A DNA stretch of 64,000 nt from Alloascoidea hylecoeti (GCA_001600815.1 BCKZ01000022.1:1-64000), one strand, 5' to 3'; shown: positions 1,554 to 54,536, counted from the first letter of the stretch. The notes: a model not told the origin generated them from the sequence alone. Numbers and translations are program-made.

Positions 1554-1730
1554 TTTTCTAAATCTTAAAGAAATATGAATATAAATTAGATGGATTGATT
1601 AATATTAATGTTATACCATAATTAGTAACTCGTAAACGCGTATAATTACGTAGTGGTCAATTCCGTCACGATGCATTTAATTTATCTTTCCTTATTTGAT
1701 TTTATGCATATGCAGCAGAACTGTTTTTTT

Positions 1731-3191: not shown

Positions 3192-5174
3192 TTATTTATA
3201 AATTGGAATATTGACAAAATATTTACCAATAAAAACAAAATCCAATTTATTATCAACGATTAAAGTTTGAAGCAAATCTTTACCTGGTATTTCAATAAAT
3301 CTCCATTTTTCAATTTCAATATCATAAAGTATAAGATATTCGATACGTTCAACATCCAAAATTACATCATCAAATGGATCAATATTATCTCCAAGGTAAT
3401 ATTGAACTTTTAATGCTATATTATTATTATTCCAAAAGTATGGATAAACTCTGATTCCCTGTATTTCAAAATTAGGATATTTAATGTCTATTGAAGGTTT
3501 AAGTGTATCAATTTTAGGAGTTTCCAATATAACTTTCCAATCGTAATTATCGTAATTATTATCATTATCATACAAATTAAAGTTATAGCTTTTATCTGAT
3601 GTATCTAAAAATATTGAATTAAAAGATTCAACATTAATTTTTAAATTATCTTCAATATTGTTATCATTGTTAATCATATTTAAAAATTTTATAATTGGAA
3701 TCCATAATAATTGAAAGTTATCAACACGTTTGTAATTATGCATATTTTTCCAAATATAATTAATTTGAAATAAATTTGAACCAATCATGATAATTTGAGG
3801 AAAAAAGAGATGGGTATTGTTTGTAAAAGTGTCAAGTAGCAGTTCCATTCGAAATCTTTGTATCCCATGCCAATAGGTATTTAAATCATAATTGATTTTA
3901 TAGTTACCCAAATATTCACCATTTGTAGTTCTGAATATTAACCAGAAGTAATTATTATAACCAGCTTGTACTTCATAATAACTACATATCATTATTGGGA
4001 TTAAAGTATAAAAATCTGATACTTGGATTTTTAAAAAAGTTGGAATTGATAAAAACTCTTCAACTTCAAGATCATCAGACCTTATTTGCTTCTTTTTCAA
4101 TTGAATTTTAACCTGCCAAACCATTGTTGATTGTAATTTGTTATCCACATCACTATTTTTCTTATAACAATTTAAAATTATAGGTCTTGATGGATAATTA
4201 TAATTTGGAACATTAGTTGATATTAGATATTTTCCAGCAGTATTATCATTAATTTTTAAAAATTTCTCAGGTGTGAATAAATCTCCGTATTGCAATGCAT
4301 TAGAATTTTTTTCTCGTTGTTTTCTTTTTTTATAAAGGATGTTAAATAATATAGGATCATAAAATTTTTTATTACAATTCCAAGGTGATGGTTCTGAATA
4401 TAATTTCTCATGAAAATTTACTGGTAATCTCCAATTACTATAATTATTAACAGTTGTTTCAGATTCCATGGANATTGTATTTTCCCAATTAAATTGATTT
4501 AAAGGTTTATTAATTAATGCANAAGTTTGTGGGAATTTTGAATATAATTTATTGATAGATNTATTTGATTTTGAATCGGATTGAAAATAAACACTTGAGA
4601 CACCANTATNACTGGACCAGTCATTGATTAATGGAATTATTTGNATCACACATTCATCATCAATATCATTTTCATTTATATTATCGTCNTTCTCAATGAT
4701 AGTATTTTCAATAGATGATAAATCAAAAAGTCCAACAACTGGGTAGTTTAAAGAACTACAATCATAGTACTCTTGGTTGGTTAGAATGGGGTATTCAGTC
4801 GCCCCATANCTATCANNANAATTCNGAANAACTTTATTTTGCCATAGAGTGAATGGTACTTTTTCGTTATGGATTTCTTTAAAAATTGGTACTTCAAGTA
4901 TATCAGGATCAAATAAATTCACGATCTTAACATCTCCATTGTTTAAATTCTTGATCATTTCTTTATGTTTGTTTTTCAATGATTTGATGGATTTTCTTTG
5001 ATTTCCTTTAGTGAAAGAATCCAGTATAACAGTAGCATATTGTTTATTACTATAGTTCTGTTTATACAAGGTGAAAAGGAGTTTACATGTCTTGAAGAAT
5101 CTGAATGCATCTACTGGAGTAAGCTTCTCTGTGATAAGAATGATGGTCTCTTCAGGTAGATTTATGATTTGCAT
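3192..5174 (-). CDS. F-box protein, lineage-specific C-terminus
   Basis: N-terminal F-box signature IINLPEETIILITEKLTPVDAFRFFKTCKLL in a 660 aa ORF. Scattered N bases at about 4470-4830. Confidence 0.8.
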   Translation of the reverse strand: MQIINLPEETIILITEKLTPVDAFRFFKTCKLLFTLYKQNYSNKQYATVILDSFTKGNQRKSIKSLKNKHKEMIKNLNNGDVKIVNLFDPDILEVPIFKEIHNEKVPFTLWQNKVXXNXXDXYGATEYPILTNQEYYDCSSLNYPVVGLFDLSSIENTIIEXDDNINENDIDDECVXQIIPLINDWSSXXGVSSVYFQSDSKSNXSINKLYSKFPQTXALINKPLNQFNWENTXSMESETTVNNYSNWRLPVNFHEKLYSEPSPWNCNKKFYDPILFNILYKKRKQREKNSNALQYGDLFTPEKFLKINDNTAGKYLISTNVPNYNYPSRPIILNCYKKNSDVDNKLQSTMVWQVKIQLKKKQIRSDDLEVEEFLSIPTFLKIQVSDFYTLIPIMICSYYEVQAGYNNYFWLIFRTTNGEYLGNYKINYDLNTYWHGIQRFRMELLLDTFTNNTHLFFPQIIMIGSNLFQINYIWKNMHNYKRVDNFQLLWIPIIKFLNMINNDNNIEDNLKINVESFNSIFLDTSDKSYNFNLYDNDNNYDNYDWKVILETPKIDTLKPSIDIKYPNFEIQGIRVYPYFWNNNNIALKVQYYLGDNIDPFDDVILDVERIEYLILYDIEIEKWRFIEIPGKDLLQTLIVDNKLDFVFIGKYFVNIPIYK

Positions 5175-6739
5175 GATGGTTAGAATTCAGAATCTAGGGC
5201 CTACCTCCTTAGTATAACACTATTGACTTACTAGTATCTAGTAAAAACTCTTTACCTAACTATAGTAGTATTTATGTTGGAGTTTAGAGAGATATAAATA
5301 TTTAAAGGGAATTTATAATTGGCTTGAGTTAACATTAGTTTTTTTGACTAATAATGATACATTTATTCCACTTAATGTAGGCCATGCTGGTTACTAATTA
5401 TCGGCAGGATTATCGCCTGTATGAGTTCGTAATACTCTCCGTTAATTAATATGCAGGGGTATGGAACAACTTCTGCCAAACCAGGGCGAACTCATGAAGA
5501 ATGATCGAAATTAAGTAGATCAATTGTCAAAACCCCAATCCAATTCCTTATTCAATGACCAATCCAGTCATATTACCTTTCGATATGTGACAGAATGCAT
5601 TAAAAATGGTGTTAGACTCTTTATTATTCTTGCTTACACTAAAAAGAAGTTGAATAAGCTTGCAATTGTAACAAATCACATCAAGGGGAAACTTGATTAT
5701 CTCAGATGTCCACCACATTGCTCTCTTCTTGGAATAAGAAAAGAATGTAAAATAACTGATTGACTATAATTAGATGAATGTTCAGATGTAAACTACAAAT
5801 CTATATAAATGTCTATTTTTCTACTTTTTCTATAATACATATAAATTCAAAGAAAAATACATTTAAGGAGTCATATCATTATAGTAAAAGTTGTATAGCA
5901 ACATACTTAAATCTTATATATTTTGAAAGATATATAACAGATCACATTTATATCTTATAGGACACAAATAATGATGATAAATTAAATACTATCTATTATT
6001 ACATATTTAACGGCGTTCTTGAAGTTTAAGAATTGGTTAACAGACACCTTAACGTATACAGTTTTGGTATCGAGTTTACTATCTTATTGAACTATCAGTC
6101 TTTATGGTTATATGGAATCATTTTTAATCTGAATTTGAACATTCAAATATATCAAGCTACAAAAAGAGAGCGTGTATAGTTATTCATCTAATATTAATTA
6201 TTTGTTTTGTTTATTATCGGTACTATCAATTAGATGCAACATTAAATACCTTTAGCTTTAGTTGCGTAGTCAGTACTGGCGAATATCTAGTGTATTATGT
6301 GCTGGAATATTTAGCCTAATAATTGGCCTAAAGTAAGTGGAAACACAGCATCTTTATTTCCTTACAACCCCATGGAAGAAATCTCACACTACAAACATAA
6401 AATACAAAAAGAAAATTTTGAATAATGATTATGAATAACGATATTGAGTGGATTTTATTGGAAGTACATATGTATAATATTTTATCTTCGTTGCTGGTTT
6501 ATAATTAGTTGCTGCAACAGAACAATGGGGATCTGGGTATGCTGAGCTTAAGCACTAACTCGTCCGACTATGCCATCTACGGTATAGGTGTTTAAAATGA
6601 TGTAGAATTATTAAAGGAGATGTATGCTATATAAGAGAGTTTGTACTTGAGATTGAAAAAAATGAAGCGAGGAATTTTATTCTAAATGATAAAACAGTAT
6701 GTAAAAATTAAGTACAATCAACTAAAATTCCAGATTGTT

Positions 6740-8140
6740 TTAACCAATATCTTTTAACAATTTCACCAGTTCACCTTCTGTAAAAATATTTTCAATATCA
6801 TTTCGATCTTGACTCATTACTGAGGCTGTTGTTTTCATTGATACAAGTGCGACTTTTTTTCTAAATTCTGGTGAATTAATAATTATCTCAGCAATTGTAC
6901 TCTGTTCTCTTAATCTTAAATTTTTTTGAAATGGTGCTTCAGTATCCCAATATTGGAGAACATGTTGAGTAAACTCAGATCTTCGAAAAAAGGTCTCCCC
7001 TGTATTAATTTCGTAATCATCTTGACCAAATATGAAATCCATATTATAAATATCTTCATCTGTTATTTCTGGAATTGGTGGGTAATCTTTTGGATCCAAT
7101 CCAACTGATTCCATCAAACTTTCTGAATTATAGAACTCATTTTCTCCATCTTCAACTGGCCATGGAGCAAGGCCATATATTTGACCTACATAACTTTGTC
7201 GATCTCTAACAAATGGCTTGAAATACGATAACCTATTCTTTAAAGCCTTTGGATGCAATAAATATTCGGCAAGGTCAACTTCATAATCCATGATAATAAC
7301 ATCAATATCTAATAAATAGACCCATTCAACATCTGGGAAATCATCAAACACTCTTCTTAAAGCTTTTATTTTGCTCCAATATTTTTCTCTATCACTTGGA
7401 ATATCAATATATGTTAAATTATACCATGCATTAATGTAACCATGATAATCACAATATTCTTGTCTATTTTGATAGACTTGCTCAAACATATTTGGTTGTT
7501 TACTACCTCTGCCATCAGTTGATGATAAAATTGCAATTTTTGCACCTGATGGTTCTAATTTCCCAGTTTTGGGGTCTAAATCTTTATCGGTGAATTGAAC
7601 AGGTATCAAATTTCTTAAAAAATCTCTTAAAACAGCCCTTCTATTAATTCTATCAAATTTAAACTTTTTGGACATTTCATAATCATTACCCTGTTTACTT
7701 GCAATTTCAGCTTCTTTTTTCATTATCGGTGTACATTTCATTCTCAGTTGCAAAAAATTCTGTTGAGGAGGAAGAGAATGATTCCATTTTCCGAACATAT
7801 ACATCATTATCCCTAAACACAGAAATGCCAGAATAAATTTCACTAAAACAATAGTATAAAATACCAATCGATAAGAAAACCGATATGAATGGTGGTATTT
7901 TCCTAATGTTAGCTGTAGTTAAATTATTTTTGAAAACATTTGCAGATTTTGTATAACTATGAACATAGTTATTTGCAACTTGTAATATCATTACTGTTAT
8001 CGCGATCAATTGTAATTAATCTCACCAAGAAAGATAAACCGGAAATTGTCATTAATCTGCAGATTAATAGGATAATTGTATGATTATGATTATATAATGG
8101 TTGAAAAAGAGAAATAGTATTATTCTTTGTTAATTATTAT
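6740..8140 (-). pseudogene. 5' and central part of a GT34 paralog; internally deleted, frameshifted, 3'-truncated
   Basis: About 6789-7724 appears identical to 10221-11156. About 7725-8140 is a diverged match to 11410-11860, including upstream sequence. The N-terminal ORF (7707-8009) is out of frame with the catalytic part. Homology stops at ...IFTEGE. Confidence 0.88.
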
Positions 8141-9856
8141 CTCAAAAATTCTGTAAGACTGTTGTATTGTTTTAATATGGAAAGGTATAATATAGCGGAG
8201 TTGGTTATTTAGGTTGGGATAGGGTTAATACATAAATTGACGACCTAACAGTTATATTTGTGTCTCTACATTAGACTGGTCCATTACTAAGTTTATAGCA
8301 TAGTAGCTAATAGTATGAAGTTTTACACTATAAGAAAGATTAGATTATATAAAAGAGTAAATTATCCTATCTAAATGGGATATCAGTCAAATTACTATTC
8401 ATAAGTTATTATTATTCATTTTCATCAATTCATTTCTGCTATAGTTAATACCTAACATTTATTACCACAAGACCAATATATATTCTTACTCCTATACGCG
8501 TATAGTACGCCATATGCTCTAACGATATGATTCATCAGGTTTGTTTCATAAACAAGTGCAACAGAAACCTAATACATAATAATAATATTAAAGTTATTTA
8601 TTTAGGATGGGATTGGTTTAATCTATGAATTAATGGCATATCAGATATTTAAATTTGTGTTATATAAGTTTCCTGAGTAGTAATAGCATAAGTAAAATTA
8701 GACTATAAGATATTATAGAAAGTAGATATGGTATCCCAATATAAATAAAAATCATTAACTAATTATAACAGTTCCAAGAGGAAAATTTTAGATCTTATTT
8801 TCTTTCTATGGTTCGCGTTAGTTACAATAAGCAACTTGAAAGAGAATCAAAAAACTTTCAATAACCCTCGCGGAAAAAGTAACCACACGTACATCACCAA
8901 AATCACTTCCATATACATATTAAAGACAATAGAAGATAGATAAATGGCAAACTTGAATCCTGTCGTTTCAAATTAATTCTTGAAATTCTCTGTCAAATTA
9001 TTTGTCCCTTTTTCTTAACTGTGTAGGACTCCATACTTCCCTGCCTTACAAATATAGTTATTATGATTCTTAAATAGATGAATGCATGCATATGTATGCT
9101 GGTATATTTCCGTATGCAATATGTACAGTTGCAGTTGCATATATATATTCTCAGGAGACAAAATTGAAAGTTAGTATAATTATAAACTATGTACCGATTA
9201 TAATATAATTTAAGTGTACAAGTTTTATACGGAAGTTTGATATATTTATATTTTGCTTCAACTATCTATTCCCTATCATCACTATCGTCATTCTTTAATT
9301 CTTCAACATAGAACGTGGAGGTCCAACCTTGAGGATTGGGCACATATACCATAATAACAATGGTCACACATAAGAAAATGTCGCTTTAAGTTTGAATGTA
9401 GTCCCAAATATTTTACTATTTATATGCATAAGAGCATATGTAGCTTTTTTAAGAGCTCTAAATTTTACAAGTATAAAGCTTAAGAAACAGCGGTGTATAC
9501 GGTATACATATATGTAATGTTTTTCAGAAATTGTCATAAACACATATGGATTTACATTTGGCCTCCTTTTCTCGGGTTCACTAAAAAATTAAGTAGTATT
9601 ATAAATGGGAATTATATGAACATCATTTATAACAGATTCATTCAATTCAACACGGTAATGAACTATTCGCTTTATAGATATATGTCTTATGGATTTATTT
9701 CGTCAAATACTAATTATATTATTAAATGATAAGCTAGAACGTTCCTTATTTTTTACAAAGTACATGTTATTATTTCCAAAAGAAAAGAACGTTACAATTA
9801 TGTATGAACTCGCTGATTTTAATTTTAATTCTTTCTTTAATTTGTATGACAATTGA

Positions 9857-11716
9857 TTATCGATCAATTATATCTTTGAGATATCCATATTTATCTTCAA
9901 TCTCCTTTTCTTGTTTACCTCTATATTTTATTTTTCTATTGGTCCATTCATTTAACTCAAAAAGATTGATTTTATTGAAATTCCTTTCCGATTTTTCTAA
10001 AGGTTTAATCTGTTCTGGAGTTATGGTCTCTTCTTGTCTCATTTCTTTCCAAAATGCCGGCTCAGTCCATCCTTGAGGTGCTCGGATTTCAGGCACCCCA
10101 CTCTTTCTGAATTCTTCTGGGACCCTTTTTCTATGACTCCATAATCTATTCCATTGACCAGGGCCACGATTTCCTGGATATCCTGCAAAATGAATGATAA
10201 AATCACCTTCTGAAAAATTGTTTTCAATATCATTTCGATCTTGACTCATTACTGAGGCTGTTGTTTTCATTGATACAAGTGCGACTTTTTTTCTAAATTC
10301 TGGTGAATTAATAATTATCTCAGCAATTGTACTCTGTTCTCTTAATCTTAAATTTTTTTGAAATGGTGCTTCAGTATCCCAATATTGGAGAACATGTTGA
10401 GTAAACTCAGATCTTCGAAAAAAGGTCTCCCCTGTATTAATTTCGTAATCATCTTGACCAAATATGAAATCCATATTATAAATATCTTCATCTGTTATTT
10501 CTGGAATTGGTGGGTAATCTTTTGGATCCAATCCAACTGATTCCATCAAACTTTCTGAATTATAGAACTCATTTTCTCCATCTTCAACTGGCCATGGAGC
10601 AAGGCCATATATTTGACCTACATAACTTTGTCGATCTCTAACAAATGGCTTGAAATACGATAACCTATTCTTTAAAGCCTTTGGATGCAATAAATATTCG
10701 GCAAGGTCAACTTCATAATCCATGATAATAACATCAATATCTAATAAATAGACCCATTCAACATCTGGGAAATCATCAAACACTCTTCTTAAAGCTTTTA
10801 TTTTGCTCCAATATTTTTCTCTATCACTTGGAATATCAATATATGTTAAATTATACCATGCATTAATGTAACCATGATAATCACAATATTCTTGTCTATT
10901 TTGATAGACTTGCTCAAACATATTTGGTTGTTTACTACCTCTGCCATCAGTTGATGATAAAATTGCAATTTTTGCACCTGATGGTTCTAATTTCCCAGTT
11001 TTGGGGTCTAAATCTTTATCGGTGAATTGAACAGGTATCAAATTTCTTAAAAAATCTCTTAAAACAGCCCTTCTATTAATTCTATCAAATTTAAACTTTT
11101 TGGACATTTCATAATCATTACCCTGTTTACTTGCAATTTCAGCTTCTTTTTTCATTTTATTGATTTGATTTTCAAGAAAATGGTCTAATTGAGCTTCTTC
11201 CTCAAAAGTCATAACTAAATTATTTTTGATTTCTGCAAGTGTATCAGGAAGAATATAATCATATATTGGATCTCTGAAATATGTTGCATATAATTCTGTT
11301 ATATTTACAATTGATTCCTCTGAAATTGCATGATATTTTGATTTTGTTAACGGATGATTTAAGTCTTTAATATTTTCGACTTGCAATTGATTTAACTTCG
11401 ATTTTTTATTATCTGCATCTAATTCCATTTCAAAAGATTTTGTTGAAGAGGAAGAGTGATTTCTATAAGATGCAGGTTCAGTTCTAGATCTCGGTATACC
11501 ATTATTTCTAAAATCAGAAATGTCAGAATAAGCGTCACTAAAATAATAGGATATAACACCAATGAATAAGAAAACCAATATAAATGATGCTAAAAATAAA
11601 TAATAGGCATATGGTCTTTTCTTAGCTGTAGATAAATTATGTTTGAAAAAGTTTCCAAAATTTTTATAACTATGAACATAGTTATCTGCAATCGGTAACA
11701 TCATTACTGTTATCAC
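9857..11716 (-). CDS. GT34-family (Mnn10/Mnn11/Gma12-like) Golgi glycosyltransferase, type II membrane protein
   Basis: N-terminal transmembrane segment, NRQEYCDYHGY, WSKIKAL, WVYLLDIDVII (DxD), INTG and GDFIIHFAG. The true start is probably one of the two adjacent ATGs near 11704. Confidence 0.9.
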   Translation of the reverse strand: MITVMMLPIADNYVHSYKNFGNFFKHNLSTAKKRPYAYYLFLASFILVFLFIGVISYYFSDAYSDISDFRNNGIPRSRTEPASYRNHSSSSTKSFEMELDADNKKSKLNQLQVENIKDLNHPLTKSKYHAISEESIVNITELYATYFRDPIYDYILPDTLAEIKNNLVMTFEEEAQLDHFLENQINKMKKEAEIASKQGNDYEMSKKFKFDRINRRAVLRDFLRNLIPVQFTDKDLDPKTGKLEPSGAKIAILSSTDGRGSKQPNMFEQVYQNRQEYCDYHGYINAWYNLTYIDIPSDREKYWSKIKALRRVFDDFPDVEWVYLLDIDVIIMDYEVDLAEYLLHPKALKNRLSYFKPFVRDRQSYVGQIYGLAPWPVEDGENEFYNSESLMESVGLDPKDYPPIPEITDEDIYNMDFIFGQDDYEINTGETFFRRSEFTQHVLQYWDTEAPFQKNLRLREQSTIAEIIINSPEFRKKVALVSMKTTASVMSQDRNDIENNFSEGDFIIHFAGYPGNRGPGQWNRLWSHRKRVPEEFRKSGVPEIRAPQGWTEPAFWKEMRQEETITPEQIKPLEKSERNFNKINLFELNEWTNRKIKYRGKQEKEIEDKYGYLKDIIDR

Positions 11717-12379
11717 GATCAGTTAATGTTAATCTCACAAAGACAAATAAACCAGGAATTATCGATAGTCTGCAGATAAAAAGGATAACTGTATGATTTT
11801 GATTATATATAATGGTTGAAAAAGAAAAAAAAAAGTGTTATTCTTTGTTAATTATTATATGACCTGTCCACATAAACAAACTTTGGAAATTGGGTACATT
11901 TACCGGTATCGTATTTACGATCGTAAAAATTCGGCATAAATATGCAGGATGTAAGGTTTATAAGGCCATATTTACGTGGTTCAATAAATATTCTTGGTCT
12001 TATCAATATGAAATTATGTGATTAATCAGGCTCTAAAGGAATCTTTTAGATATGTATATTGAATCCTTATTCTAGATTAACCGGATATTCTTCAATGAGT
12101 CTTCATCAAATCTGATCAAAAATAGTGGGTCAATTAATCCATCTCTCTCTTAAACCTCTTCCTATTCACCTACTACTAACAGTTTATATAAAAAGAATGA
12201 ATTAAACTTACATGGTGGGCAACGTTACGGTGCACTGGTGCAGACGCCCTCCTAATTAAGAATATGCGAGAGTATCTCCATAAAACCTTAATAATCTTCC
12301 ACTGATCCAGACGACACCTATGCTGAAACCGGTTTTTCAATGAACCCATTGGCACCGTAGACTATACGCGTATACCAAA

Positions 12380-13350: not shown

Positions 13351-15525
13351 TGAAATTTCTAGAAGGTGAATTATCCCTTGATAAAGTCATCCACGAAAAC
13401 CTTGCTGTTAATTAGGGTCTGCGAGATGTTAAGGGGAAAAGATGAGGCTACTAAGACCCAGCTTGTAGGATGTGCGTATGTATAAGAGGAACTTTATTTA
13501 CTTAGCAGATCACAATTTGATCAGTGATCTACCTGCAAACATGATAAAGCCTTAGGCAGAACGCTTAATTATTGTTCCGACAAAATATTGTTTCAATCTC
13601 CCCGTGCATTATAGAAAAGTGAAGGAAATGATCGAAAAAATAAAATAATTTTCGAGGTGAAAAAAGCCCATTAGTACGACTACAAGACAATTTATTATAG
13701 TAAAACACCTGGAGAAGGTATAACCGGATTCTCCACTTGATGATACATACAAATACATAGTTTTATATTTTTCTGGGATACGTTAATTTATTGTATATAT
13801 AGTGATGATTACGACGGGGATAACATGACTACAGAAGATTACACTCACAGGAATAAGGAATCAGAGTGTTCGATTAATCCTAAAGTTCCACGCGTCAGGT
13901 TTGAAGAGTTCAATATAAATCCAGGATAATATAATGATCAAGAGAAGCAACAACATCAAGAAAAAAATCAAGAATCCGAAGAAGAAATGGTATCTGAAGG
14001 GGAAATGGTATCTGAAAATTTGGACGATGATTACTCAAGAAAGTCTAATACTAGTCGGTAATGGCTCGTATAGGATTCGAGACATCCTTCATTGAAGAGA
14101 TTTATGGAAGTAATCTAGGAAGCCTCATATGCACAATACTGTAAGGGTCTGCCCATTGTAAGTAAGCTGTAGCTGAATCAAACGAGTCCATATTAGTTAC
14201 TAAATCAACCATCAACATCACCGAAAAAGTATGAATACACTAGATATTTTGTATATATAAACTACTTCTCTTGATAATTTTGCTTTCAATTCAAAGTTGG
14301 AGAGTTTCTTCAATTTTACCCTGGTACCGGTATTCATCTCTACATTTCAAGAAGATTACCTCTTACCTGGACATCACCAACTACTGGATTTTCTCTACGT
14401 AACTTTTCTTTTTCTACCTATATAATTAACTGTTTCGTTTCATTTTTCCAGAACTCTGGGTGTTTAATGATGGAAATTGAACTGATTATCGCTCGCTATT
14501 AGACATCTACATATGCATGGGCCTCGACATATTGATAGTTTTTAGCCATTTGCGTCGCCATAACAGCTAGGTTTTGATAAATTTCTCTTAATTCATCTTT
14601 ATTGTAAAATCCTTTTCTAAATGTTTCATCAAGTTAAGCAAGCTGTCTTTTGGTGGTGGTGTATCCATAGAAACAAACTTCACCACTATACTCGGTTTCA
14701 AGTTTCAACTTTCAAGGGCTATATCCTAGCCATCCTTGACCCTGATATTAAATTAGAAAACGTTAAAATCCCTTGCTCCTGCATATGAGATCATTGTTGT
14801 GTATTATGTTTCCGCCAGTGGACTTAATTCTAGTGTAGAGATTTAATTTTGTTGATATATGAACTAAATTATATTATAATTAATGGAGATGTTTCCAAAT
14901 AATTAAGGAAGCATTCATTTTATATGTCTATTTACCTTTCTTCATTGAGTGTGTAAATGAAACTCTCTATGGCAGGAGAAATTGAAAACTTATGAGATAT
15001 CTGATGATGATCCTTGCAGTTGGTCTCCAAGGATGCGTGTGACTTTATTAGGTAGCGCTCATATTTCCACCACAATGCTCGAAGGTGATCCCTTAAAAAA
15101 ATTAAAGTGGAATTCAAAATTCTAAGAGGGGGACGGAACTACTTACACATAATTATCCGGAGATAACAAAAGGGATATGTGTTAGAAGGTTGGACTTAAC
15201 ACTTATAATAAATCCATAGAAGTCTAGTACTAGAAGAACGCTCAGACTACAACAATATTTACAAAATTAAATATCAAACATATATTATCAGAATTATGGG
15301 ATTAAGAAGATCTCATAATTAAAATTGATTCATATCTTATAAAATATTTAGCAAATTAGACCAATATATTAATTATATACAAGTTTTAACAATAACTAAT
15401 TGTAATTTATATAAAAGACAATTTCAAAATCCTTCAATTACTTCCACATGGTATCTGTTATTTTTTATTTCTTTCATTTCTATTTCCATTTCTACTTCTA
15501 TTTTTTATATATATCTTATAAACTA

Positions 15526-26745: not shown

Positions 26746-26938
26746 GCTGGTGAAGCCTAATTAACTGTTTGGAGTTCAACATTAAAAAGAACTCAACAAA
26801 CTGTAATACATTTAAAATATCCTCAATTACAATGGAAAGCCTTATGCAGAAGTTGAAGAAAAATTACCTGATCATGATGATTTTAAAACTCGTGATGATA
26901 ATAAGTTTGAATATATATATAGAGGTGGTGAATCTTAT
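26746..26938 (+). pseudogene. FBP26: Internal fragment of fructose-2,6-bisphosphatase (FBP26-like)
   Basis: LTVWSSTLKRTQQT..HLKYPQLQWKAL / YAEVEEKLP..DFKTRDDNKFEYIYRGGESY. The intervening DELDAGxCDGxT segment is missing. Confidence 0.88.
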
Positions 26939-27099
26939 ACTATCATAATTAATTAATACATATTCATTTATTTCATATACGTATAAATAATACATGTCAA
27001 TAATCAAAAACTACACAAATTCATTAAATAGCAAAATTATCACAAGTCAAGTAGACAAAAATATAATAACAATAATAAATTATTTAATCATCATCTCAA

Positions 27100-28330
27100 A
27101 ATAAATCATTTAATTATTGAAAATCTCTTGCTTTTCCAATTTTTAATTGTTCTTCTATTTCTTCATTTGATTCTCCTTTAAGTTTTGGTTTATTGCTGGA
27201 GAATCCAAAATCGATAAAGTAAATAGTTTCATCTGAACTTTCAATTAAATTTTCTTTTCTGATATCTCCATGTATAATATTTTGAGAACGTAATATTTTT
27301 AAATTTGATACTATTTTTGGCAAATTATCGTCATTTGTAAAATCTGGTTTCTTTCCCGTTATATTCCTCATTAATATATAAATGCCTCCATCTTCATGAT
27401 GCTTATCAGAATCAGATTTAATTATAATAGATCCAAAACAGATTAAGTCTGGAACAAAATTAATCTGATTTTTACATTTCTGTATCAAGCAATAGGTGTC
27501 ATATTCTGTAGCAAAATGTTCCATACATTTCTTTGGCATATTTTCAATATCATCAGTTCCTTGATTCGCGCAATAGGGATCATATATTTTTAAGATGTAT
27601 TGGGTATTTTCTTCCAATGGAAGGGAAGAACTCCATTATCATCACTCATATCTTCTAGGGTGTTTTTAGAAACCCTAAGAACTTAAGAGTGATACTCTCT
27701 GTGGCGCGAATATTGCACCGTTAATTTCTCCAATTTCAACGGTGTCAAAGCATCTTTATTTAAACATAAATCTCTTCGTATAAAACTTATTGTTTTTTTG
27801 ATCTGATTATTTTTCTAATGAAAATGATTGAGTACAAAAGTAATTGTTTCTCTTTGATAATTACATATTTTATAGGTATTTTCTTGTAAGAGGTGATATT
27901 ATCAAACTGTGTTTCATAATCATCATATTTTATTTTATTTTCAGCGTCGATATCAATTTGATATAATATAGAATATAGTTGAATAGTAATTGGAAACCCA
28001 TCCGAATGGTGTACTACTCAATAAACACTGATGAACCGATTGAATAAACATATCATTGAAATCTTTTTCGAAAGGTAAATCATCTTTGTTTAGAATTTGA
28101 ATGACCGGTCTTTTCAGTTCAATACAAATTATTGTATGGTGTTCTTAGTAAAAAATCAGGGACAACTCTATATCCCGAGAGGATGCGATCTCAATGAATT
28201 TTGCGGTGCAAATTTTAGCCTACATTGGTCCTGGTAATCAAGAAGCCGTATTAAATATTTTGTTACTTGAAAGATTCTTTTTTCTAGGATCGAAGTAATT
28301 TGAGCTTCATTAATTGGCCTATATACTTCA
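27100..28330 (-). pseudogene. Decayed PD-(D/E)xK nuclease plus protein-kinase fusion gene
   Basis: Kinase motifs ILKIYDP, VPDLICFG, IHGDIRKENL and YFIDFGFS (27114-27617). Upstream, frameshifted RVVPDFLL / IICIELKRP (28100-28170) and QSVHQCLL..PFG / SDG (about 27990-28050). Confidence 0.7.
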
Positions 28331-28863
28331 ACTATTTCCCGATTTAAAGTTGATAAAATGATTTAATTTAGTTTGGTAATATCCATATGTGACAATTTGA
28401 GTAGTAGTAATTGTATATCAGTAAAGGTTTACATTTATGTATTCTCAAGTGGTGACCAATTTGAAGCTGATGTTCACAATTATGTAGGGAAGGAGCTATT
28501 TTACGAAGGGTTCTCGTAATATCTGTGAATTTACGAATTTTATAAGTAAAACAAAAGTTAGGTAGCAATAGTAATTTTAAAAAAATTTTAGAAGTAAAAT
28601 AATAATATATATCAACTTTAATAAAATGACGATTGAATCACTAAGTGAAGTCAATACCAATATTTGATAAAAGTTCATCATAATTACTTTAGATCGCGCC
28701 AGTAGTTTAGGGTTTTATCAAATGGTACTGCCTTGGTCCTTTCATATAATTTCCAATTAAAAATTATAACTAGAAACTGTGTAGGAAATGTCTACTATTG
28801 TGAAGATAAAACTATATTTTCCAATTAAATTATATAACTAATTTTTTTTTTAACTTTAACAAA

Positions 28864-47054: not shown

Positions 47055-48590
47055 TTAATACACACTGATACTAATATCTTCAGATTTTGAGAGTGATCCA
47101 TTAGAACTGCTTTCCGATTCTCTTCTTAACATCAGAATGCTAGGATTAGTGATCGTTTCTTTGAACTGTCGTCTTAGTTCCTGTAGTTGAATATTGCTCA
47201 ATGAATTGGGACCTGCTTGAATATAAACCGTCATTACCGGGGAATTATTATTGTTTGTTGAAACACAATCAACTAAGACACCAGCATACTGTGAGTAGGT
47301 AAAAAATGTCATTCTTTCAACATTAAATTTAGATTCTTGTTTATAATCAACTTTATGAAACCCTAAATTTGATACTGTTAATGAAGACTCTCTATTTGAA
47401 ACAGCCATGGAGGTTGCAGCTTTATAAGAATTAAATATGAAAGATGAAAATAAACAAGGCAATGTATATGTCATTAAATATTTTTTGTTTGTTTTCTTTT
47501 TTATATCTTCAGTATTTTCTTTAACTTTATCCCAGAATGTATGGCTGAAATCTTTGTGATAATATGAATCAATAATAGATGTGAAAAATCCAAGGACATG
47601 TTTAGGATTGAGATTATTCAATGCTGGATTATCTTGTGATATGAGTCTTCGAACATTAACGGGTGTATCATGCAATAATGTGTCTTCCTTGGTGATGTTG
47701 CTAATGGCTTCGACAATCGCTATATTAATAAACGCCGTTACTGTACTATTATTCTTCTTACAAGCATTGATTATATTCTTTGTTTCTTCATGAGTAAGAT
47801 TTACCAGCGTAAATTTGACAGGATCTAGGTTCAGCTTTACTGGAATTGGAGAGTTTTGTCTTTTCTTGGGTAAAGGAGATGGGAGTGGGGTATATCTTAA
47901 GTAATGTGGTCTGAGGAACTTTGGAATTACCGGTAAAAAAACTGTTTTTAAAAGGTAGGAAATTGAACCTGAATATGGAAGAAATGCTGCTGGATTATTA
48001 ACATGGGTAACCATTTCCGGTAAATCAAATTTACCAATAGTCGTAATTTCTTCATGTTTTAATGGAAAATTTTCCCATTTTCTAAGTGATTCCAAAAGAA
48101 ATTCTTGAAAAATTTGTCCTGACATTCCATCAAATATACCATGATCAAAAATAAAACAAAGTTCAGTCTCATTAACAACTACAATCCTCCATAATAATCC
48201 ATTCACTGTATTTATAGAAAAGTTATGAGAAATTAATTTGTTAACAGTAGAATTGTCTAAATGACTCTTTGGATCTTCATCATGAACATTTGTCACATTA
48301 ATAAATTTAACAACATCATTCAAATCAACTTCATCAATATATTTCCAATAACAATCTTCTGGATTAGCTTCCATACTCTCAGTAAAAACATTAGCCAACA
48401 ACCAAGGATTTTCAAGAATAACTGGTCTGAGTGCACGAATTAACTCTAATTTAGAAAGAGGTTTGGTGTATCGCGAAGTAACAGAAACACTGCCTAAAAG
48501 TCCTCTATAGCCTAAAGTTGTATAAAACCATTCGGATGCATTCAAACTTCGAATAGGTTTTGTTCTTTCCGTGATATGAAGAGATGACAT
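47055..48590 (-). CDS. Alcohol O-acetyltransferase / Sli1-Atf family acyltransferase
   Basis: HxxxD motif FDHGIFDGMSG, LLWRIVV, CKKNNSTVTAF, TPVNVR and VSNLG. Confidence 0.88.
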   Translation of the reverse strand: MSSLHITERTKPIRSLNASEWFYTTLGYRGLLGSVSVTSRYTKPLSKLELIRALRPVILENPWLLANVFTESMEANPEDCYWKYIDEVDLNDVVKFINVTNVHDEDPKSHLDNSTVNKLISHNFSINTVNGLLWRIVVVNETELCFIFDHGIFDGMSGQIFQEFLLESLRKWENFPLKHEEITTIGKFDLPEMVTHVNNPAAFLPYSGSISYLLKTVFLPVIPKFLRPHYLRYTPLPSPLPKKRQNSPIPVKLNLDPVKFTLVNLTHEETKNIINACKKNNSTVTAFINIAIVEAISNITKEDTLLHDTPVNVRRLISQDNPALNNLNPKHVLGFFTSIIDSYYHKDFSHTFWDKVKENTEDIKKKTNKKYLMTYTLPCLFSSFIFNSYKAATSMAVSNRESSLTVSNLGFHKVDYKQESKFNVERMTFFTYSQYAGVLVDCVSTNNNNSPVMTVYIQAGPNSLSNIQLQELRRQFKETITNPSILMLRRESESSSNGSLSKSEDISISVY

Positions 48591-50488
48591 TTTTTTATCA
48601 CTAATTTAAAAAGGTTCAATTGAATTGATTGAAGTTTAGATATGTATGTAGATTCTCTGCCGATCGAGATATCATTTTATTTATATACCTTATATATATT
48701 TTTATATGCGTACTCATTAATCCCCTTTGAAAATTGCAATTGCAGTATTTTAAGACGAAGAAAAAAAAACTTTATATTTAAACCTTATCCGTCAACAATT
48801 ATACCGAATATAGCTAGTTTATAGACAAAGTTTCATAATAAATACCTATACAAATCTTCTCCAATACCGTATAAGAGTCAACTGCGAGGATATGTAAGAT
48901 AATTATTACTATATGGTCAATGGCTAAGCAAATATATTCCAATCGTTTATGATGGATATTATAATTTGTTAGAAAGTGAAACATTGCAGTAAAAAAGTTC
49001 TTATTCAGATAATAAACGAACGCATATGGAGATTTTACCATGATTTTATACCTTAATATATTTCATTAATTAAGTTTGAAAGAACTTTAAAACACCTAAA
49101 TATATGGTTAATTAATTATATATATATATATATTATAATAAGAATCATACGATTGAGCTTACCTTTTCAATCAAGTAGGTCAATGTTTAAGCGCTGAAGA
49201 TGGATCCGGAACTTGAGAAATCGGTATTTGTGGCACAATTGCGATTTAAAAAAAAATGGAATCATAATATTAATTAAATACTGTACAGCTATAATCTGAG
49301 ATACGTAACTTACTATTGAACAGCTATAGATAGGCCTGAAACTGGTAGTATAGGGCCATAGGCCTATATTTAAATCTAGCACTATACCCAGCTCCATACT
49401 CTAAGTAAATTCTGTTTGAGAAATGTGAAATTATAATTATATTGTGCTAAATGCATAATTATGTAAAATTATTTATAATTTGGACAGGATTGAAATTTAA
49501 ATAATTCAACAGTTAATAGCTACATGTAGTTGTTTTCAATCAATTTGAAACTAACATTATAATGAAAAATATTGGTTGTTGATTGTACAGTTTTTGATGC
49601 GCGGAGCTCTTGATTGGTGCATGCTAACTTCTAGTTAAGTATGTCAAACTGGGAAGGTGACTTTTATCAACAACTTTGTCCATTAATAGATCGAGGAATT
49701 GGAAGCTTAGGTCTAATACTCAGTTATAAGGGTGGGTTTATCGATATCTTATTCTGCAGAGTTGCAACAAAAAATCGTAAAAGTGTATTATAATCTTAAG
49801 AGTTATTTTTAGATGAACAAAATCTCCATCTAAAGCTAAGGGAACCAACTATTGATTATAACTTATATCTGATCATGATGTTCTGGTGTACGACGTACGC
49901 GTGACAGCTCAATGGCAGGTAGGAAACTAATAAAAATAGGTCCAGATCAAGATATATAATCAAAAATATAACTACAGTTATAGGTGTACCTTATACATAT
50001 AAATATTTATACCTTTACATAATTACATGAAATCATATAAACGTTAACAGATCTGATTAATTGCAAACAGATAAAACACTAACTCTCTGACAATTTCAAC
50101 AAGCTTAAGATTTATCTCAGGTATTTTAATATTTTACTTTATAAATTCTTAATTTTAAACTTGCTACCTTTTTAGCGTTGATGTTTGATGGTTGATAGAA
50201 ATAGGCATTAATATTACATTACATATAGAAAAGTATCCTAACTCTAGATCTAGAGTCTAGATATTCCTTACTGATTTGTTGATAGAGTGATGACGACGTT
50301 TAATCAAATTTAGAATTCCACTATTATCCAGCGTGAGTATTCAGTTACTTTTACAGGCACTAATATTAATAAATAATTCTCAGTGGTATGTTGCTTCTTT
50401 TTAGATATATATTATTGATTATAATTCTATACTTTCAATTGAATTACAGGAGTAATCGTTTCAGTCAAGATACTGCCACACTTTTAAC

Positions 50489-50508
50489 TTTTTTTTTTTT
50501 TTTTTTTT
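50489..50508. repeat. Poly(T) run of about 20 nt (poly(A) on the minus strand)
   Basis: Directly visible homopolymer. Confidence 0.95.
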
Positions 50509-50599
50509 GATTTTACTCAATGTAGGAAACTTCTTAAAATAGGGTTCAACATCTCCATACTTTGACACATTCTGTTATCATTTTCAAGAAACTATATAG

Positions 50600-50690
50600 T
50601 TTTTAGGATTTGTGATCGGAGTAAATATCGCAATAAGTTCTGAAGTGTTTGCTAATTTTGATTATGATTAAAGATCCTATTTTAATTTGA
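50600..50690 (-). mobile_element. Short Ty3/gypsy-type RNase H relic
   Basis: Translation LIIIKISKHFRTYCDIYSDHKS* resembles the gypsy RNase H motif LKHFRHYL...IYTDHKSL. Confidence 0.45.
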
Positions 50691-50704
50691 AAGAATTTCA
50701 ATAT

Positions 50705-50955
50705 AGATTGGCCTTTTGATCCTCCTATTTGTCCTGTTACCATGTTTAATATTGTTCCATATATAGCTTCTTGTACATTAAATCATCTTGAACCTATGAT
50801 TTTTTCATTATTATCTGNTAATATATGTAATCCTAAAATTACGAATAATATTGTTATTATTAGATATAAACTAAAATTTGTAAAATTAACTGCACTTAAA
50901 TTAAAAAAAGGTGCTTATTTCAAACTGATCTAAAGGAGATAATATATGTCATATA
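50705..50955 (-). pseudogene. ATP6: NUMT: 5' part of mitochondrial atp6
   Basis: SPLDQFEI...NFTNFSLYLIIT...NNEKIIGSR(TGA=W)FNVQEAIYGTILNMVTGQIGG. The in-frame TGA sits at the conserved Trp, and ATA codons are frequent. Confidence 0.92.
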
Positions 50956-51837
50956 GATTTTTGTTTAATTTTATTTTATTTTTTCCAGAATAAAAGCTAT
51001 AATTATTTATTATAAATGATATAAACTATCTGGTACATCTTATTGGATGGTTCGATATAGCTTTCTAACACAAATTGTAGTCGGCAGATCGATGGAACCA
51101 AGAATTAAAGTTCATAGATTTTATCAACTTTCGGTACGTACGCGTGATATTTCTTTTTGAGTGGAATATTTGGAACAGATACTATATATATAGAGTACAG
51201 CTCAGTAACAAAATACTATGAAAAAAGCAATCTATGAACTACTTTCGTTTTTCCATTTCCAACAAGTTATAAATCTAAAATAGGAAATAATTCAATTATG
51301 CAAGTTTAACTTTAATTACAAAAACTGTCCTGGTGAGCAAGCCCAAGATGCTTCACGAAAAGATAAGAACAGTATAAGAACGCAAGATTTCTGAAATTAA
51401 ACGCGTCATATTGTAGTTCGGATCTTCCTTTAGCTAGTAAAGGGTCAACTCCTCTCAGATATCAAAACAATCACCCGTGTAAAGTGCCCTACTGTGCCCA
51501 GATACAATGAAAAGTGCCCCACTTTCTACAAAACTTTAGCAAAAATTTCAGAGATAAGATGATTTTCATGCAAGATAATTTTCCTACTCACAAAACTGGT
51601 GATACCATGCCATAGTTTGAAGATACAGAGGAAGTAATTGAAGTGATGCAGTGACCTGTCACCCGCGTTATCTAAACTCAATTAAGAAAAAGTGCAAATC
51701 TGAATTATTAATGCGCACAATAAAAGTCTGTGAATAATAATATAAGTAAATTAGTCATTATCAGCATGTTCAATTCGTAAAAATATATAACTATTTATAA
51801 TATTTATTTCGTTAATAATTAAGCATCCACTTTAAGA

Positions 51838-52075
51838 TTAGTAACCAAAATCTTAATATTTGTCTTTATGATTAATAAGTTCTTGAAATCCTCCTTCAAT
51901 TGTATCCTTTACGTCAATCTTACCAGTAATCATTTGCCTTGCCTTGTCCATAGACAGTTTACCTGATAAAGCTTCTACAACTTGTTCAAAATCAAGTCTA
52001 ACTTAGCCCATACCAGTAACAAATTTTTCCTGGAGTGTCACATCCATCAGATAAAAATCAATTGGTTTATGGGCT
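51838..52075 (-). pseudogene. BDH1: 3' fragment of 2,3-butanediol dehydrogenase (BDH1-like MDR)
   Basis: HKPIDFYLMDVTLQEKFVTGMG*VRLDFEQVVEAL...MITGKIDVKDTIEGGFQELINHKD/NIKILVT, with one stop and one frameshift. Confidence 0.85.
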
Positions 52076-52428
52076 TGATGTACCAGTCGTCGGGAATTTT
52101 GAGAATTTCAAACACCTGACTTACGCGTCGACAGAAAAAACCATAAAACCATCAGCTTGTAGAATTGTCAAAAGTATAATATTAAAGGAAGATAAAAAAG
52201 TTTTCCTCTGATACGAATAAATATTCAAGTATCCTATTGTGTTCTTTCTTGCATCAAGAAATAGTCTGATAATATAAAAAAGCAATTCAAAATAACCCTC
52301 CGAAGAATGTTCAAAATTGACAATAGCAGACGATTGTAAGCGGATGTTTTATTCCATTCATCTGTTGAATTGGTGGAAGTGTTTTGAGTTGTAGTGTTAG
52401 AAGTTGATGTTTTAATAAATTAGTAAAT

Positions 52429-52613
52429 CAAGAGTTCTGACTTAAGTAAGAAATCTCTGAAACCAGTAGAATGGATACCGACGTAACTTCCTTTCTTATC
52501 ACCATCACCGCCAGCCTCAGCTGCGACCTCCCCTATGGTTTGGTTTCTGTTGGAACTGTAATTTCCTCTGAGTCAGAATAATCGAGGAGTTCTTCTTCGG
52601 CCTCGTTCGACAT
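52429..52613 (-). pseudogene. SUB2: 5' fragment of DEAD-box helicase Sub2/UAP56
   Basis: [18 protein letters not shown].../...[25 protein letters not shown], with one frameshift and an abrupt end. Confidence 0.93.
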
Positions 52614-53705
52614 TGTTTGTTTAAGTCGATAAAATGGATTAAATTGAGTTAAAATGAATAAAAAAAGTCTTTTTTCCGGTTGAACTGAAAACACAAAAAG
52701 AAAAAGATAATGTGATGGTTGTTGAAGATATGTTGTAAATAGAAGAGGGTCTGAGAATTAATCTATTCCGTGAGAAGAATTTTCCTGTCTCAATGGATAC
52801 TTGCAATTGTGTAATATCCATGACTGCTATTTGACTACAAATATTATTGTTGAAATACTCTTTCTGACCCAACCAATATGCGAAATTGATTGATATGAAA
52901 TGAGTTTGTATCATTTATTTCGGCGTATAGATATCCTCCGCCGTTGGATTTTTGATAGTATGAAAAGTATATACCAGCGTTTGGATTGAAAAAGAGCATT
53001 CGGTTACTCGCTTGTCCTTATAGTTCATTCTATTTCCTCAAATTGGTATAAACTCTAATTGCTATCGCTGAAAAGAAATGTTAAAACTCTTAATATAATA
53101 GACAATCAGTAGCATATCAAAAAATGAGACCATTCATGGATAAACCCAACAATAAATACCGTTCATATATAACAATTTACTAGCTTAAATGAGCTTATCA
53201 TCATGAAAATATTTGGGTATCGTAGCCATATACCGGTATCTTAAGGCTCGATATTACCCAACCAATTACAACTATAAGATAATCTTACGTGTAAAACGTT
53301 TTGACACCTATTTATGACGTGACAAAATAATCTAGATTAGATTTCCAATCGACTTTTATAATTAGTATTCTACTTCTAATTTAATAATAATATTATAAAC
53401 AATTATATATTTAATCAAATTTTTATATACTACTGGATTTTTTAAACTTGATTGTCATATCACACACGTGACTCTAATAAATACCTTACCCTCCTTTTAA
53501 GAGCTTTGAAATAATAATATTTCAAGAAGAATAATAATATAACATTAAACACAAATGTTTTAAATTTTTTTTATAATTTAATTATAAAGATTCATATAAT
53601 ATTTCATTATCATTTATTAAAAAAGTCATAATGACAGCAATAATAAAAGTTTCATATTTGTGTGTGATTCTTAAAACCCAAGAATATATAATTTTTTATT
53701 TAAAA

Positions 53706-54536
53706 CTATTGTTGATTGCTTGATGGATTGATGGCTTCTTCATTCTCTTTTTCAATTGTAGGTTTCTGACCATTTGTATTACCATTGTCAGTTGGCGTAA
53801 TAGTAGCAGTAGATTTTAAAATATTATCATCTTTAGGATTATTATTTTCATTTGAAGTAATTTGTTGTTCCGATAGTGGTTGTTGTAGTTGTGATTGATC
53901 ATTATTTTTTGTGCTTATAGCTGAATTAGGTAAAGTGTTTGTTTCAATGGATTCATTAGTATTTGGATTTGGATTTATATTTGCAATTCCTTCAGGATTT
54001 GTAATTGAGTTTGAAGTTGGAATTTGATTTGGAGTTGGAATTTTATTTGTAGGAGATTTAGAGTATCTTCTTGTCGGAGATGTTGACCTTGAACGATATG
54101 AAGAACCAGAGCGTAGAGGAGAATGAGAACGGGAACGAGCTGGAGAACGAATTGGGGAACGAGAACGGGAAATCGAACGAGAACGAGTTCTTGAAACGGG
54201 AGTCCTTGAACCTCTTGAACGCGAAACAGAACGTGAATCTCTATCACGATATCCCCTTCTTCGACGAGGATGATCCTTCCTTCTAGACTTTGCGTACTCC
54301 ACACTGAGTATATCACCTCCTGGTATTCTCCTGTTGTGCATTTCGTAGTAAGCATCTTCAGCATCGTATGGATCTTCAAATTCAACAAAAGCATACGGTT
54401 TCTGAGACACACGAGGAGCCGGAATATCACATCTTATAAGTCTTCCAAACGACTCGAATTCGTATGCCAAATCACGGGCTCTGATTTCCGAGGAAAACCC
54501 AGTCACATGCAGGGTTCTTTTGTGAGGTCTTCCCAT
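53706..54536 (-). CDS. SR-type splicing factor (single RRM plus RS domain; Srp1/SRSF-like)
   Basis: TLHVTGF..IRARDLAYEFESFGRLIRCDIPAPR...YAFVEFED..DAEDAYYEMH followed by RSRS repeats. Confidence 0.9.
   Translation of the reverse strand: MGRPHKRTLHVTGFSSEIRARDLAYEFESFGRLIRCDIPAPRVSQKPYAFVEFEDPYDAEDAYYEMHNRRIPGGDILSVEYAKSRRKDHPRRRRGYRDRDSRSVSRSRGSRTPVSRTRSRSISRSRSPIRSPARSRSHSPLRSGSSYRSRSTSPTRRYSKSPTNKIPTPNQIPTSNSITNPEGIANINPNPNTNESIETNTLPNSAISTKNNDQSQLQQPLSEQQITSNENNNPKDDNILKSTATITPTDNGNTNGQKPTIEKENEEAINPSSNQQ

What the first reader, a model, noticed from the sequence alone, without database searches (positions are those of the whole stretch)
50489..52640. Co-oriented patchwork of captured fragments: SUB2, BDH1, mitochondrial atp6, gypsy RNase H, poly(A)
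Seen: within about 2.1 kb, four unrelated 90-250 bp fragments (two nuclear genes, mtDNA and a retroelement), all in sense orientation on the minus strand and followed by an A20 run. The atp6 piece abuts the RNase H relic, and unidentified coding-like DNA lies between the pieces. Known: yeast double-strand breaks can capture mtDNA and retrotransposon cDNA. Inference: a capture hotspot or a reverse-transcriptase template-switching product. With the FBP26 scrap and the split GT34 gene, it suggests a genome that routinely absorbs gene fragments. Four co-oriented pieces would arise by chance 1 time in 8.
Basis: partly seen in the sequence, partly recalled or inferred. Interest (0 to 1): 0.78.

Follow-up and report, generated by a model that had tools for sequence, protein, structure and literature searches.

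The report
Circularly permuted duplicate plus mitochondrial insert
In a yeast chromosome, a dead 1-kb copy of two neighbouring genes sits with its halves swapped, as expected if the DNA passed through a small circle before re-inserting, beside a separate scrap of mitochondrial DNA and an old transposon remnant; these are known kinds of DNA-repair accident rather than one RNA-copied chimera.

Summary
The SUB2, BDH1 and atp6 pieces are real, but they are not four unrelated, co-oriented fragments. Intact BDH1 and SUB2 are neighbours 110 kb away on the same contig. Window 52716-51756 is one ~1-kb copy of that locus with its halves swapped; it keeps 222 nt of intron and intergenic DNA, and its junction has no microhomology and no splice sites. 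Contigs of three public runs span the junction unchanged. This fits excision as a circle and re-insertion by end joining. The atp6 piece is a true mitochondrial insert with 0-2 substitutions against 3.4% for the nuclear copy, so probably younger, although indel density is similar. A Tc1-like relic on the opposite strand separates them. The RNase H call is unsupported (13.7% of random windows score as well); A20 runs are common. A second copy from the same donor starts 79 bp from where this one ends and lies 152 kb the other way. Other copies checked also carry intron or intergenic DNA; 1 of 8 multi-piece copies is permuted. Known kind; modest interest.

The parts
52428..52716 (-). Copy of SUB2 5' flank (105 nt, weak extension to 52732) and most of exon 1; donor G000:C22:163645-163357; frameshifted
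   Evidence: 94% identity; alignment; parent splices to an open 433-aa DEAD-box helicase frame
52328..52427 (.). 100-bp filler of unknown origin inside the SUB2 exon copy, replacing 2 donor bases, no target-site duplication
   Evidence: Alignment; spanned by contigs of X1 and X2; no donor found by DNA, protein or pattern search of the own genome; no high-depth mitochondrial contig on it
52075..52327 (-). End of SUB2 exon 1 and first ~222 nt of the 736-nt intron 1 (5' splice site damaged by a 4-nt deletion); donor C22:163348-163091
   Evidence: 92% identity; intron bounds from the parent; 13 substitutions in 226 aligned sites
52074..52075 (-). Head-to-tail junction joining the two ends of the donor segment (SUB2 intron, C22:163091, to BDH1 codon 297, C22:164088); no microhomology, no GT/AG
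   Evidence: Junction sequences; spanned with 0 differences by records of X1, X2 and X3
51756..52074 (-). Copy of BDH1 codons 297-384 and 62 nt of 3' flank (weak extension to 51729); donor C22:164088-163759
   Evidence: 93% identity; parent is an intact 384-aa zinc-dependent dehydrogenase; paralog on C17 only 77%
51234..51720 (+). Old Tc1/mariner-like transposase relic, opposite strand; bounds approximate
   Evidence: Dispersed family, 69-82% identity; DDE_3 match E=0.067, below cut-off; D-rich 'MQDN..H' and 'Q.P' motifs read in the + frame
50705..50972 (-). Mitochondrial insert (NUMT): start of atp6 with a little upstream DNA; 20-nt and 5-nt deletions and a 3-nt insertion against the mitochondrial contig
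   Evidence: high-depth contig with 0, 2 and 1 other letters in X1, X2, X3
50509..50704 (.). Unidentified DNA; the proposed gypsy RNase H relic is not supported
   Evidence: no match to 5 LINE 3' loci beyond A-rich runs
50489..50508 (-). A20 run, probably a slippage tract; a LINE or mRNA tail is not shown
   Evidence: 9 runs of 20+ in C22, 2 in 200 kb of C23; no target-site duplication and no upstream likeness to 15 other runs

Best explanation
The stretch is an intergenic pile of separate DNA-level insertions, not one molecule and not a functional unit. Oldest is a Tc1-like transposon relic. Beside it, a ~1.0-kb piece of the BDH1-SUB2 locus (C22:163091-164088) was copied or over-replicated without loss of the donor (shown: donor intact), its two ends were ligated bluntly into a circle (inferred from the swapped order and the head-to-tail junction), the circle was opened in the BDH1-SUB2 spacer with loss of 71-113 bp and joined into a chromosome break by non-homologous end joining (inferred). 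The dead copy then took a 100-bp filler and 11 small indels, mostly at short repeats (shown). On the other side of the relic a ~270-bp piece of mitochondrial atp6 was captured, probably later (capture shown, order inferred). The A20 run and the 'RNase H' stretch are incidental.
For: Adjacent donors and swapped order: window order A-B-C against donor order C-A-B, same strand; a contig of the donor shows as a 'goes back 962' joint in X1, X3, X4. No second copy of the segment at the donor, which is the false-positive pattern named in PMC7188851. Intron and intergenic DNA kept; junction not at splice sites; no microhomology. No poly(A) behind the BDH1 piece. In yeast break-repair data, two pieces from one locus are mostly inverted and same-orientation pairs are 'very rare' (PMC11724301 passage), which favours a circle over two linear pieces. 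Substitutions: 28 of 824 sites in the nuclear copy against 0-2 in 251-268 NUMT sites, 7.4 expected at equal age, P 0.0006-0.02. Other copies are DNA-level: 5.4 kb with three genes from C18 inserted in a GT34 duplicate; C10 gene plus spacer plus next gene; SUB2 intron plus far downstream DNA at 315.5 kb. Ku-domain genes are present with open frames.
Against: One permuted insertion only: no second integration opened elsewhere, no free circle, no origin test; 7 of 8 multi-piece copies checked are collinear. 71-113 bp are missing at the opening point. The missing part lies in the middle of the 281-bp spacer, and the two outer ends could coincide with the SUB2 start site and the BDH1 poly(A) site, as an RNA route predicts; no transcript-end data were available. 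A 6-nt direct repeat lies within a few bases of both ends, weak in AT-rich DNA but not excluded as a target-site duplication. Indel density is alike in NUMT (3-4 in 268 nt) and nuclear copy (11 in about 870 nt), which does not support different ages; the substitution test mixes nuclear and mitochondrial lineages, and one NUMT base reads N. No empty site was seen, so the order of events is inferred.
Confidence: 0.62

Rival explanations
1. Two linear pieces from the same donor locus (SUB2 5' part, then BDH1 3' part) were ligated into one break, or copied in turn by a polymerase that switched template backwards; or a transient tandem duplication at the donor supplied the junction. DNA-level, no circle.
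For: Explains the 71-113 bp gap without extra loss. Two to four fragments are captured together in about 4000 of 33000 yeast insertions (PMC11372161 passage). A further piece of the same donor begins 79 bp away, so the donor may have been fragmented.
Against: No microhomology at the junction argues against polymerase switching. Same-locus pairs in the same orientation are described as very rare. No tandem trace at the donor.
Confidence: 0.22
2. The SUB2-BDH1 piece is a cDNA chimera: a reverse transcriptase began at the BDH1 mRNA 3' end, jumped to unspliced SUB2 pre-mRNA from the neighbouring gene, and copied it to its 5' end.
For: Both pieces are sense; outer ends lie 62-91 nt after the BDH1 stop and 105-119 nt before the SUB2 ATG, and the middle of the spacer is missing. 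LINE-type and gypsy elements occur in the genome. A 6-nt repeat lies near both ends.
Against: Intron retained and broken in its interior; no poly(A) or retroelement DNA at the BDH1 end; needs two neighbouring genes' transcripts to meet; the other copies examined cross gene boundaries or spacers.
Confidence: 0.1
3. One reading: all pieces from SUB2 to the A20 run are one reverse-transcribed, template-switched molecule.
For: SUB2/BDH1 and atp6 are sense on one strand with an A run downstream; indel densities are similar.
Against: Antisense Tc1-like relic in the middle; different substitution loads; RNase H unsupported; A runs common, no target-site duplication.
Confidence: 0.03
4. Cargo of a gene-capturing DNA transposon (Helitron or Pack-type element).
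For: Such elements gather co-oriented, intron-bearing gene pieces (recalled); transposon relics are frequent here.
Against: No terminal inverted repeats around the block, no other locus shares its flanks or cargo, and the Tc1-like relic does not resume beyond the insert.
Confidence: 0.03

Closest known systems
eccDNA-mediated (circular-intermediate) duplication, as defined in PMC7188851 (parts 1-2 of 4 of the text read)
   Same: Donor order abc-def appears as def-abc, same strand, at a distant site; donor intact; junction supported by independent sequence data; no new gene made.
   Different: About 1 kb in a yeast rather than human segmental duplications; 71-113 bp lost at the opening point; no outgroup to show the empty site.
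Region B of wine Saccharomyces cerevisiae (PMC3053389; 12 passages read)
   Same: Circularly permuted integration in a yeast, intergenic site, little or no homology at junctions, attributed to end joining.
   Different: Region B is 17 kb, foreign, holds five genes and a working replication origin, and is integrated in eight forms; this copy is the yeast's own DNA, 1 kb, dead, and seen once.
Templated and complex insertions at yeast double-strand breaks, including NUMTs (PMC11372161 and PMC11724301; 12 passages each)
   Same: 45-300 bp pieces of mitochondrial and nuclear DNA joined by Lig4/Pol4 end joining, donor not deleted; the 268-bp NUMT and 100-bp filler fit that size range.
   Different: Those are laboratory events at an induced break, several pieces at once, same-locus pairs mostly inverted; here the pieces are fixed, seem to be of different ages, and the same-locus pair is direct and permuted. 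Dna2 and an EndoG-type nuclease, whose loss raises such insertions, have open frames here.

Membership tests
eccDNA-mediated duplication | Same-strand copy with donor halves in swapped order | tested here: met
eccDNA-mediated duplication | Outer ends of the copy adjacent in the donor | tested here: inconclusive
   71-113 bp of donor missing between them
eccDNA-mediated duplication | No tandem duplicate at the donor that would mimic the pattern | tested here: met
   Self-comparison of C22 shows each segment once at the donor; a lost ancestral tandem cannot be excluded
eccDNA-mediated duplication | Free circle, or several integrations with different opening points, or an empty site in an outgroup | not testable with these tools
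   No relatives held; runs X1-X4 are contigs and match the window nearly letter for letter
NUMT | Near-identity to the organism's mitochondrial DNA, embedded in nuclear-depth sequence | tested here: met
   Depth 1365 against 58, 0-2 other letters; nuclear-depth records overlap both ends in X1; TGA=W reading
Retrocopy or cDNA chimera | Loss of introns | tested here: not met
   About 222 nt of SUB2 intron 1 kept
Retrocopy or cDNA chimera | Poly(A) at a parent's 3' end and target-site duplication | tested here: not met
   No A tract after the BDH1 piece; A20 lies 1.2 kb further; only a 6-nt repeat near the ends and none at the A20 run
Retrocopy or cDNA chimera | Ends coincide with transcript ends | not testable with these tools
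   No transcript-end data were available; distances are compatible
Ty3/gypsy RNase H relic | Significant likeness to RT_RNaseH or to the genome's own gypsy elements | tested here: not met
   a 30-codon relic of a lost family could fall below these tests
Tc1/mariner relic | Dispersed family with DDE_3 transposase motifs | tested here: inconclusive
   Dispersed family clear; Pfam DDE_3 E=0.067, 13.5 bits, under the 28.6 cut-off; terminal repeats not sought
Helitron or Pack-type capturing transposon | Element ends shared between loci or terminal inverted repeats around the cargo | tested here: not met
   Helitron end motifs were not searched on their own

The most novel reading that the evidence does not exclude
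One over-replicated ~5.8-kb stretch of the BDH1-SUB2 region (C22:158267-164088) broke inside SUB2 intron 1 and both halves were pasted into the same chromosome in one event, the 1-kb half through a circle at 52 kb and the 4.7-kb half inverted at 315.5 kb, making this a fixed natural fossil of a chained templated insertion in a wild yeast whose genome absorbs copied DNA far more often than model yeasts despite open DNA2, EndoG-type and Ku genes. Basis: the two copies' donor ends are 79 bp apart and their intron divergences are 5.8% and 5.1%. A fragile site in the intron hit twice explains the same data, and the higher rate was not measured.
Probability: 0.2. Interest if true: 0.55.

Novelty: new member of a known kind. 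Interest (0 to 1): 0.3.

Why it matters
It gives a small, clean, fixed example of a circularly permuted self-duplication in a wild budding yeast, a process shown before for a 17-kb foreign region in wine yeast and for a few human duplications, and it shows that this genome records DNA-level copy-and-paste captures, including a three-gene block. It makes no new gene and no new mechanism. The practical lesson is that such dead copies mimic odd alleles: the 'His-to-Tyr, AUG-less SEN34' in this window is a duplicate of an intact gene on C18. A genome-wide count of permuted against collinear copies here would measure how often circles feed gene duplication in nature.

Tried and rejected
Gypsy RNase H: Pfam scans, family search, blastn and tblastn against 15 of 18 own gypsy loci, pairwise test on 13 domains with a random control: unsupported. 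Six-frame Pfam scan of 48601-53700 found 0 families in 6 of 6 frames, missing even SUB2, BDH1 and atp6, so it is too insensitive to count. LINE tail for the A20 run: 5 of 32 zf-RVT loci compared, only A-rich matches; no shared upstream sequence with 15 other runs. Donor of the 100-bp filler: three own-genome searches found only itself; only one of its reading frames was searched as protein. Terminal or long direct repeats around the block: none beyond AT-rich chance matches. Intronic snoRNA or tRNA: nothing near threshold. Same-contig bias of donors: of 26 C22-C22 rows I dropped 4 self-palindromes and 2 multi-copy repeats, leaving 14 events, 3 of them over 50 kb apart, against 3 events between C22 and the first 200 kb of C23 in a similar search space, unfiltered for genome-wide copy number: bias at long range not shown. 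Loss of a nuclease as cause: Dna2, EndoG-type and two Ku-domain matches all have open frames; RAD27, RPA, LIG4 and POL4 not searched. No RNA holder listed. Runs X2-X4 give no cover at 50514-50687, which the tool says proves nothing. The profile built from alignment A1 contains the window itself, so only its lack of a second hit is used.

Full report
Setting. The window is G000:C22:1-64000 of a 24.8-Mb, roughly 30% GC assembly with budding-yeast-type genes. The finding lies in a 5.1-kb gap between an acyltransferase-like ORF (47055-48590) and an SR-type RNA-binding ORF (53706-54536) (names recalled from sequence features).

1. Observation. A search of the whole genome with 48600-53700 gave 22 matches: the locus itself, three at 92-94% on the same contig, a 77% BDH paralog, 16 pieces of a dispersed repeat and a 47-bp match on C10. 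The three strong matches fall within 1 kb at C22:163091-164088, where an intact 384-aa BDH1-type dehydrogenase is followed 281 bp downstream, on the same strand, by SUB2. SUB2 has a 736-nt first intron and splices to an open 433-aa frame. So the two 'unrelated' nuclear pieces are one donor segment. On the sense strand the donor runs C (BDH1 codon 297 to 3' flank), A (SUB2 5' flank and exon 1), B (intron); the window runs A, B, C. B ends at donor 163091 and is joined at 52075/52074 to donor 164088 with no shared base and no splice dinucleotides. Between the end of C and the start of A, 71-113 donor bases are missing. A 100-bp filler replaces 2 bases inside the exon copy (my notes first said 96). 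The copy has 28 substitutions in 824 aligned sites, 20 of them at G or C, and 11 small indels counted by hand, most at short direct repeats.

The structure is not an assembly error. Four public runs hold the stretch, from at most three samples and three studies, one of which may be the source. Records of X1, X2 (a wood-decay metagenome) and X3 cross the B|C junction with no differences; X1 and X2 cross the filler; the donor's own contig appears as a joint that goes back 962 bases in X1, X3 and X4.

atp6 is real: Pfam E=2.7e-5, yeast subunit a E=4e-14, and a contig at about 23 times nuclear depth covers 50705/50712-50962/50972 with 0, 2 and 1 other letters in X1, X2, X3 and 28 gap letters (a 20-nt deletion between 9-nt direct repeats, 5 nt, 3 nt). 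It is the only ATP-synt_A match in the assembly, so the mitochondrial genome appears not to be included. The C10 match is a separate small NUMT, since it carries bases deleted here.

The RNase H call did not hold: no Pfam match, absent from 18 family matches, E=4.8 against 15 own gypsy loci although in the expected place of one of them, and a score reached by 2.5% (one frame) or 13.7% (six frames) of 1500 random non-coding windows. It is not disproved, only unsupported. The A20 run is one of 9 such runs in C22, roughly a 4% chance per 2 kb of non-coding DNA on a given strand (from 213 kb non-ORF), noticed after the fact, with no duplication behind it.

2. Ages. At the nuclear copy's rates per GC and AT site the NUMT should carry 7.4 substitutions; 0-2 are seen (Poisson P 0.0006-0.02). 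Against this, indels are equally dense in both, non-coding nuclear divergence accrues on two lineages, and mitochondrial rates differ. The Tc1-like relic is 69-82% identical to its family. I read three separate arrivals, with moderate confidence for the NUMT being last.

3. Surroundings. The same donor fed a second copy: C22:315540-316176 matches 163012-158267 inverted, with a 4.2-kb deletion at a 2-nt microhomology and a 218-bp filler, and matches nothing else in the genome. It starts 79 bp from where B ends and differs by 15 of 292 sites, against 13 of 226 for B. At C22:158742-159359 lie four collinear pieces of a C10 gene, its spacer and the next gene, cut down by deletions, two with 4-nt overlaps; next to them is a piece of an oligopeptide-transporter gene in the opposite sense. 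Window 591-6771 is a 94%/86% copy of C18:103218-108661, three genes and part of a fourth, set into a GT34 duplicate without target-site duplication. All three hold intron, spacer or multi-gene DNA. Of 8 multi-piece copies whose order I could read (these four; C22:129694-132934; the C2 match; the C13 match; C22:196780-196977 with C23), 1 is permuted. A census on C22 and 200 of 349 kb of C23 gave 14 curated events within C22, most under 30 kb apart, and showed no same-contig excess at long range; 8 tiles searched genome-wide were mostly filled by repeats. The census covers about 2.5% of the assembly and gives no rate.

4. Mechanism. Best reading: copy, blunt circularisation, opening in the spacer, end joining into a break beside an old transposon relic, then decay, a filler and a nearby NUMT. 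Shown: donor, order, junction, retained intron, NUMT identity, opposite-strand relic. Inferred: the circle, end joining, order of events. The main rival is two linear pieces or a lost tandem at the donor. An RNA route for the SUB2-BDH1 piece alone stays open because its outer ends could be transcript ends and the middle of the spacer is what is missing; against it stand the interior intron break, no poly(A) at the BDH1 end, and the DNA nature of the other copies. Dna2, an EndoG-type nuclease and two Ku-domain genes have open frames, so simple loss of these does not explain the captures.

5. Known systems. PMC7188851 (parts 1-2 of 4 read) defines the swapped-order signature and its tandem false positive and kept 3 human cases. 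PMC3053389 (passages) reports circularly permuted, end-joined integrations of a 17-kb region in wine yeast. PMC11372161 and PMC11724301 (passages) show mitochondrial, Ty and nuclear pieces of 45-300 bp captured at breaks, singly or together, with same-locus pairs mostly inverted. Six literature searches (listings and abstract starts only for the other papers) showed no report of a small permuted self-duplication fixed in a non-model yeast, but the library lacks most subscription papers and no supplements were opened, so novelty in print is not established.

6. Earlier notes of this scan. e1-7785138 describes a 5.6-kb patchwork elsewhere in this genome with an eccDNA reading; not checked here. 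Notes on LINE relics prompted the poly(A) test. e1-7785638 calls the window's SEN34 single-copy; one search shows a C18 copy with an ATG and the histidine, so the window copy is the derived duplicate.

Verdict. Observation partly confirmed; RNA-chimera reading not supported; capture-prone genome supported in kind but not measured. New member of a known kind, interest 0.3.

Noticed in passing
window 591-6771 and G000:C18:103218-108661 (L045): A 5.4-kb DNA copy from C18 (three genes and part of a fourth, 94% and 86% identity, with 706 extra bases in the window) is inserted into a GT34 duplicate.
   Followed up: yes
window 244-592, 6771-7724, 7798-8140 against 9854-11858: The split GT34 duplicate is 89%, 99.7% and 77% identical to the intact copy in its three parts, which suggests recent gene conversion of the middle, or an assembly collapse.
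   Followed up: no
G000:C22:315540-316176 (L118 541-1177): Inverted copy of SUB2 intron 1 and far downstream DNA from the same donor, with a 4.2-kb deletion and a 218-bp filler; starts 79 bp from the end of the window copy.
   Followed up: yes
G000:C22:158742-159563 (L023 3743-4564): Second patchwork: eroded copy of a C10 gene, spacer and next gene, beside a C6 oligopeptide-transporter piece in the opposite sense.
   Followed up: partly
G000:C10:793713-793759 (L015 1501-1547): Small independent atp6 NUMT inside a Tc1-like transposase relic.
   Followed up: partly
window 3192-5174, 607-745, 14278-15306; G000:C14:80310-83094: A dispersed F-box-like gene family; on C14 a copy is flanked by inverted matches to window 15059-15182, as if carried between terminal inverted repeats.
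   Followed up: no
G000:C22:129694-132934 and 146184-143202; 113390-113656: Inverted 99% duplicate of parts of two genes 14 kb apart, abutting a further 86% inverted copy.
   Followed up: no
G000:C22:176095, 274075, 275249, 402547; C23:1879, 3688: Six self-palindromes of 65-294 bp.
   Followed up: no
window 26759-28419: Young repeat family (85-98%) with several copies on C22, C4, C9, C10, C26; window 1-161 is the end of another high-copy repeat.
   Followed up: no
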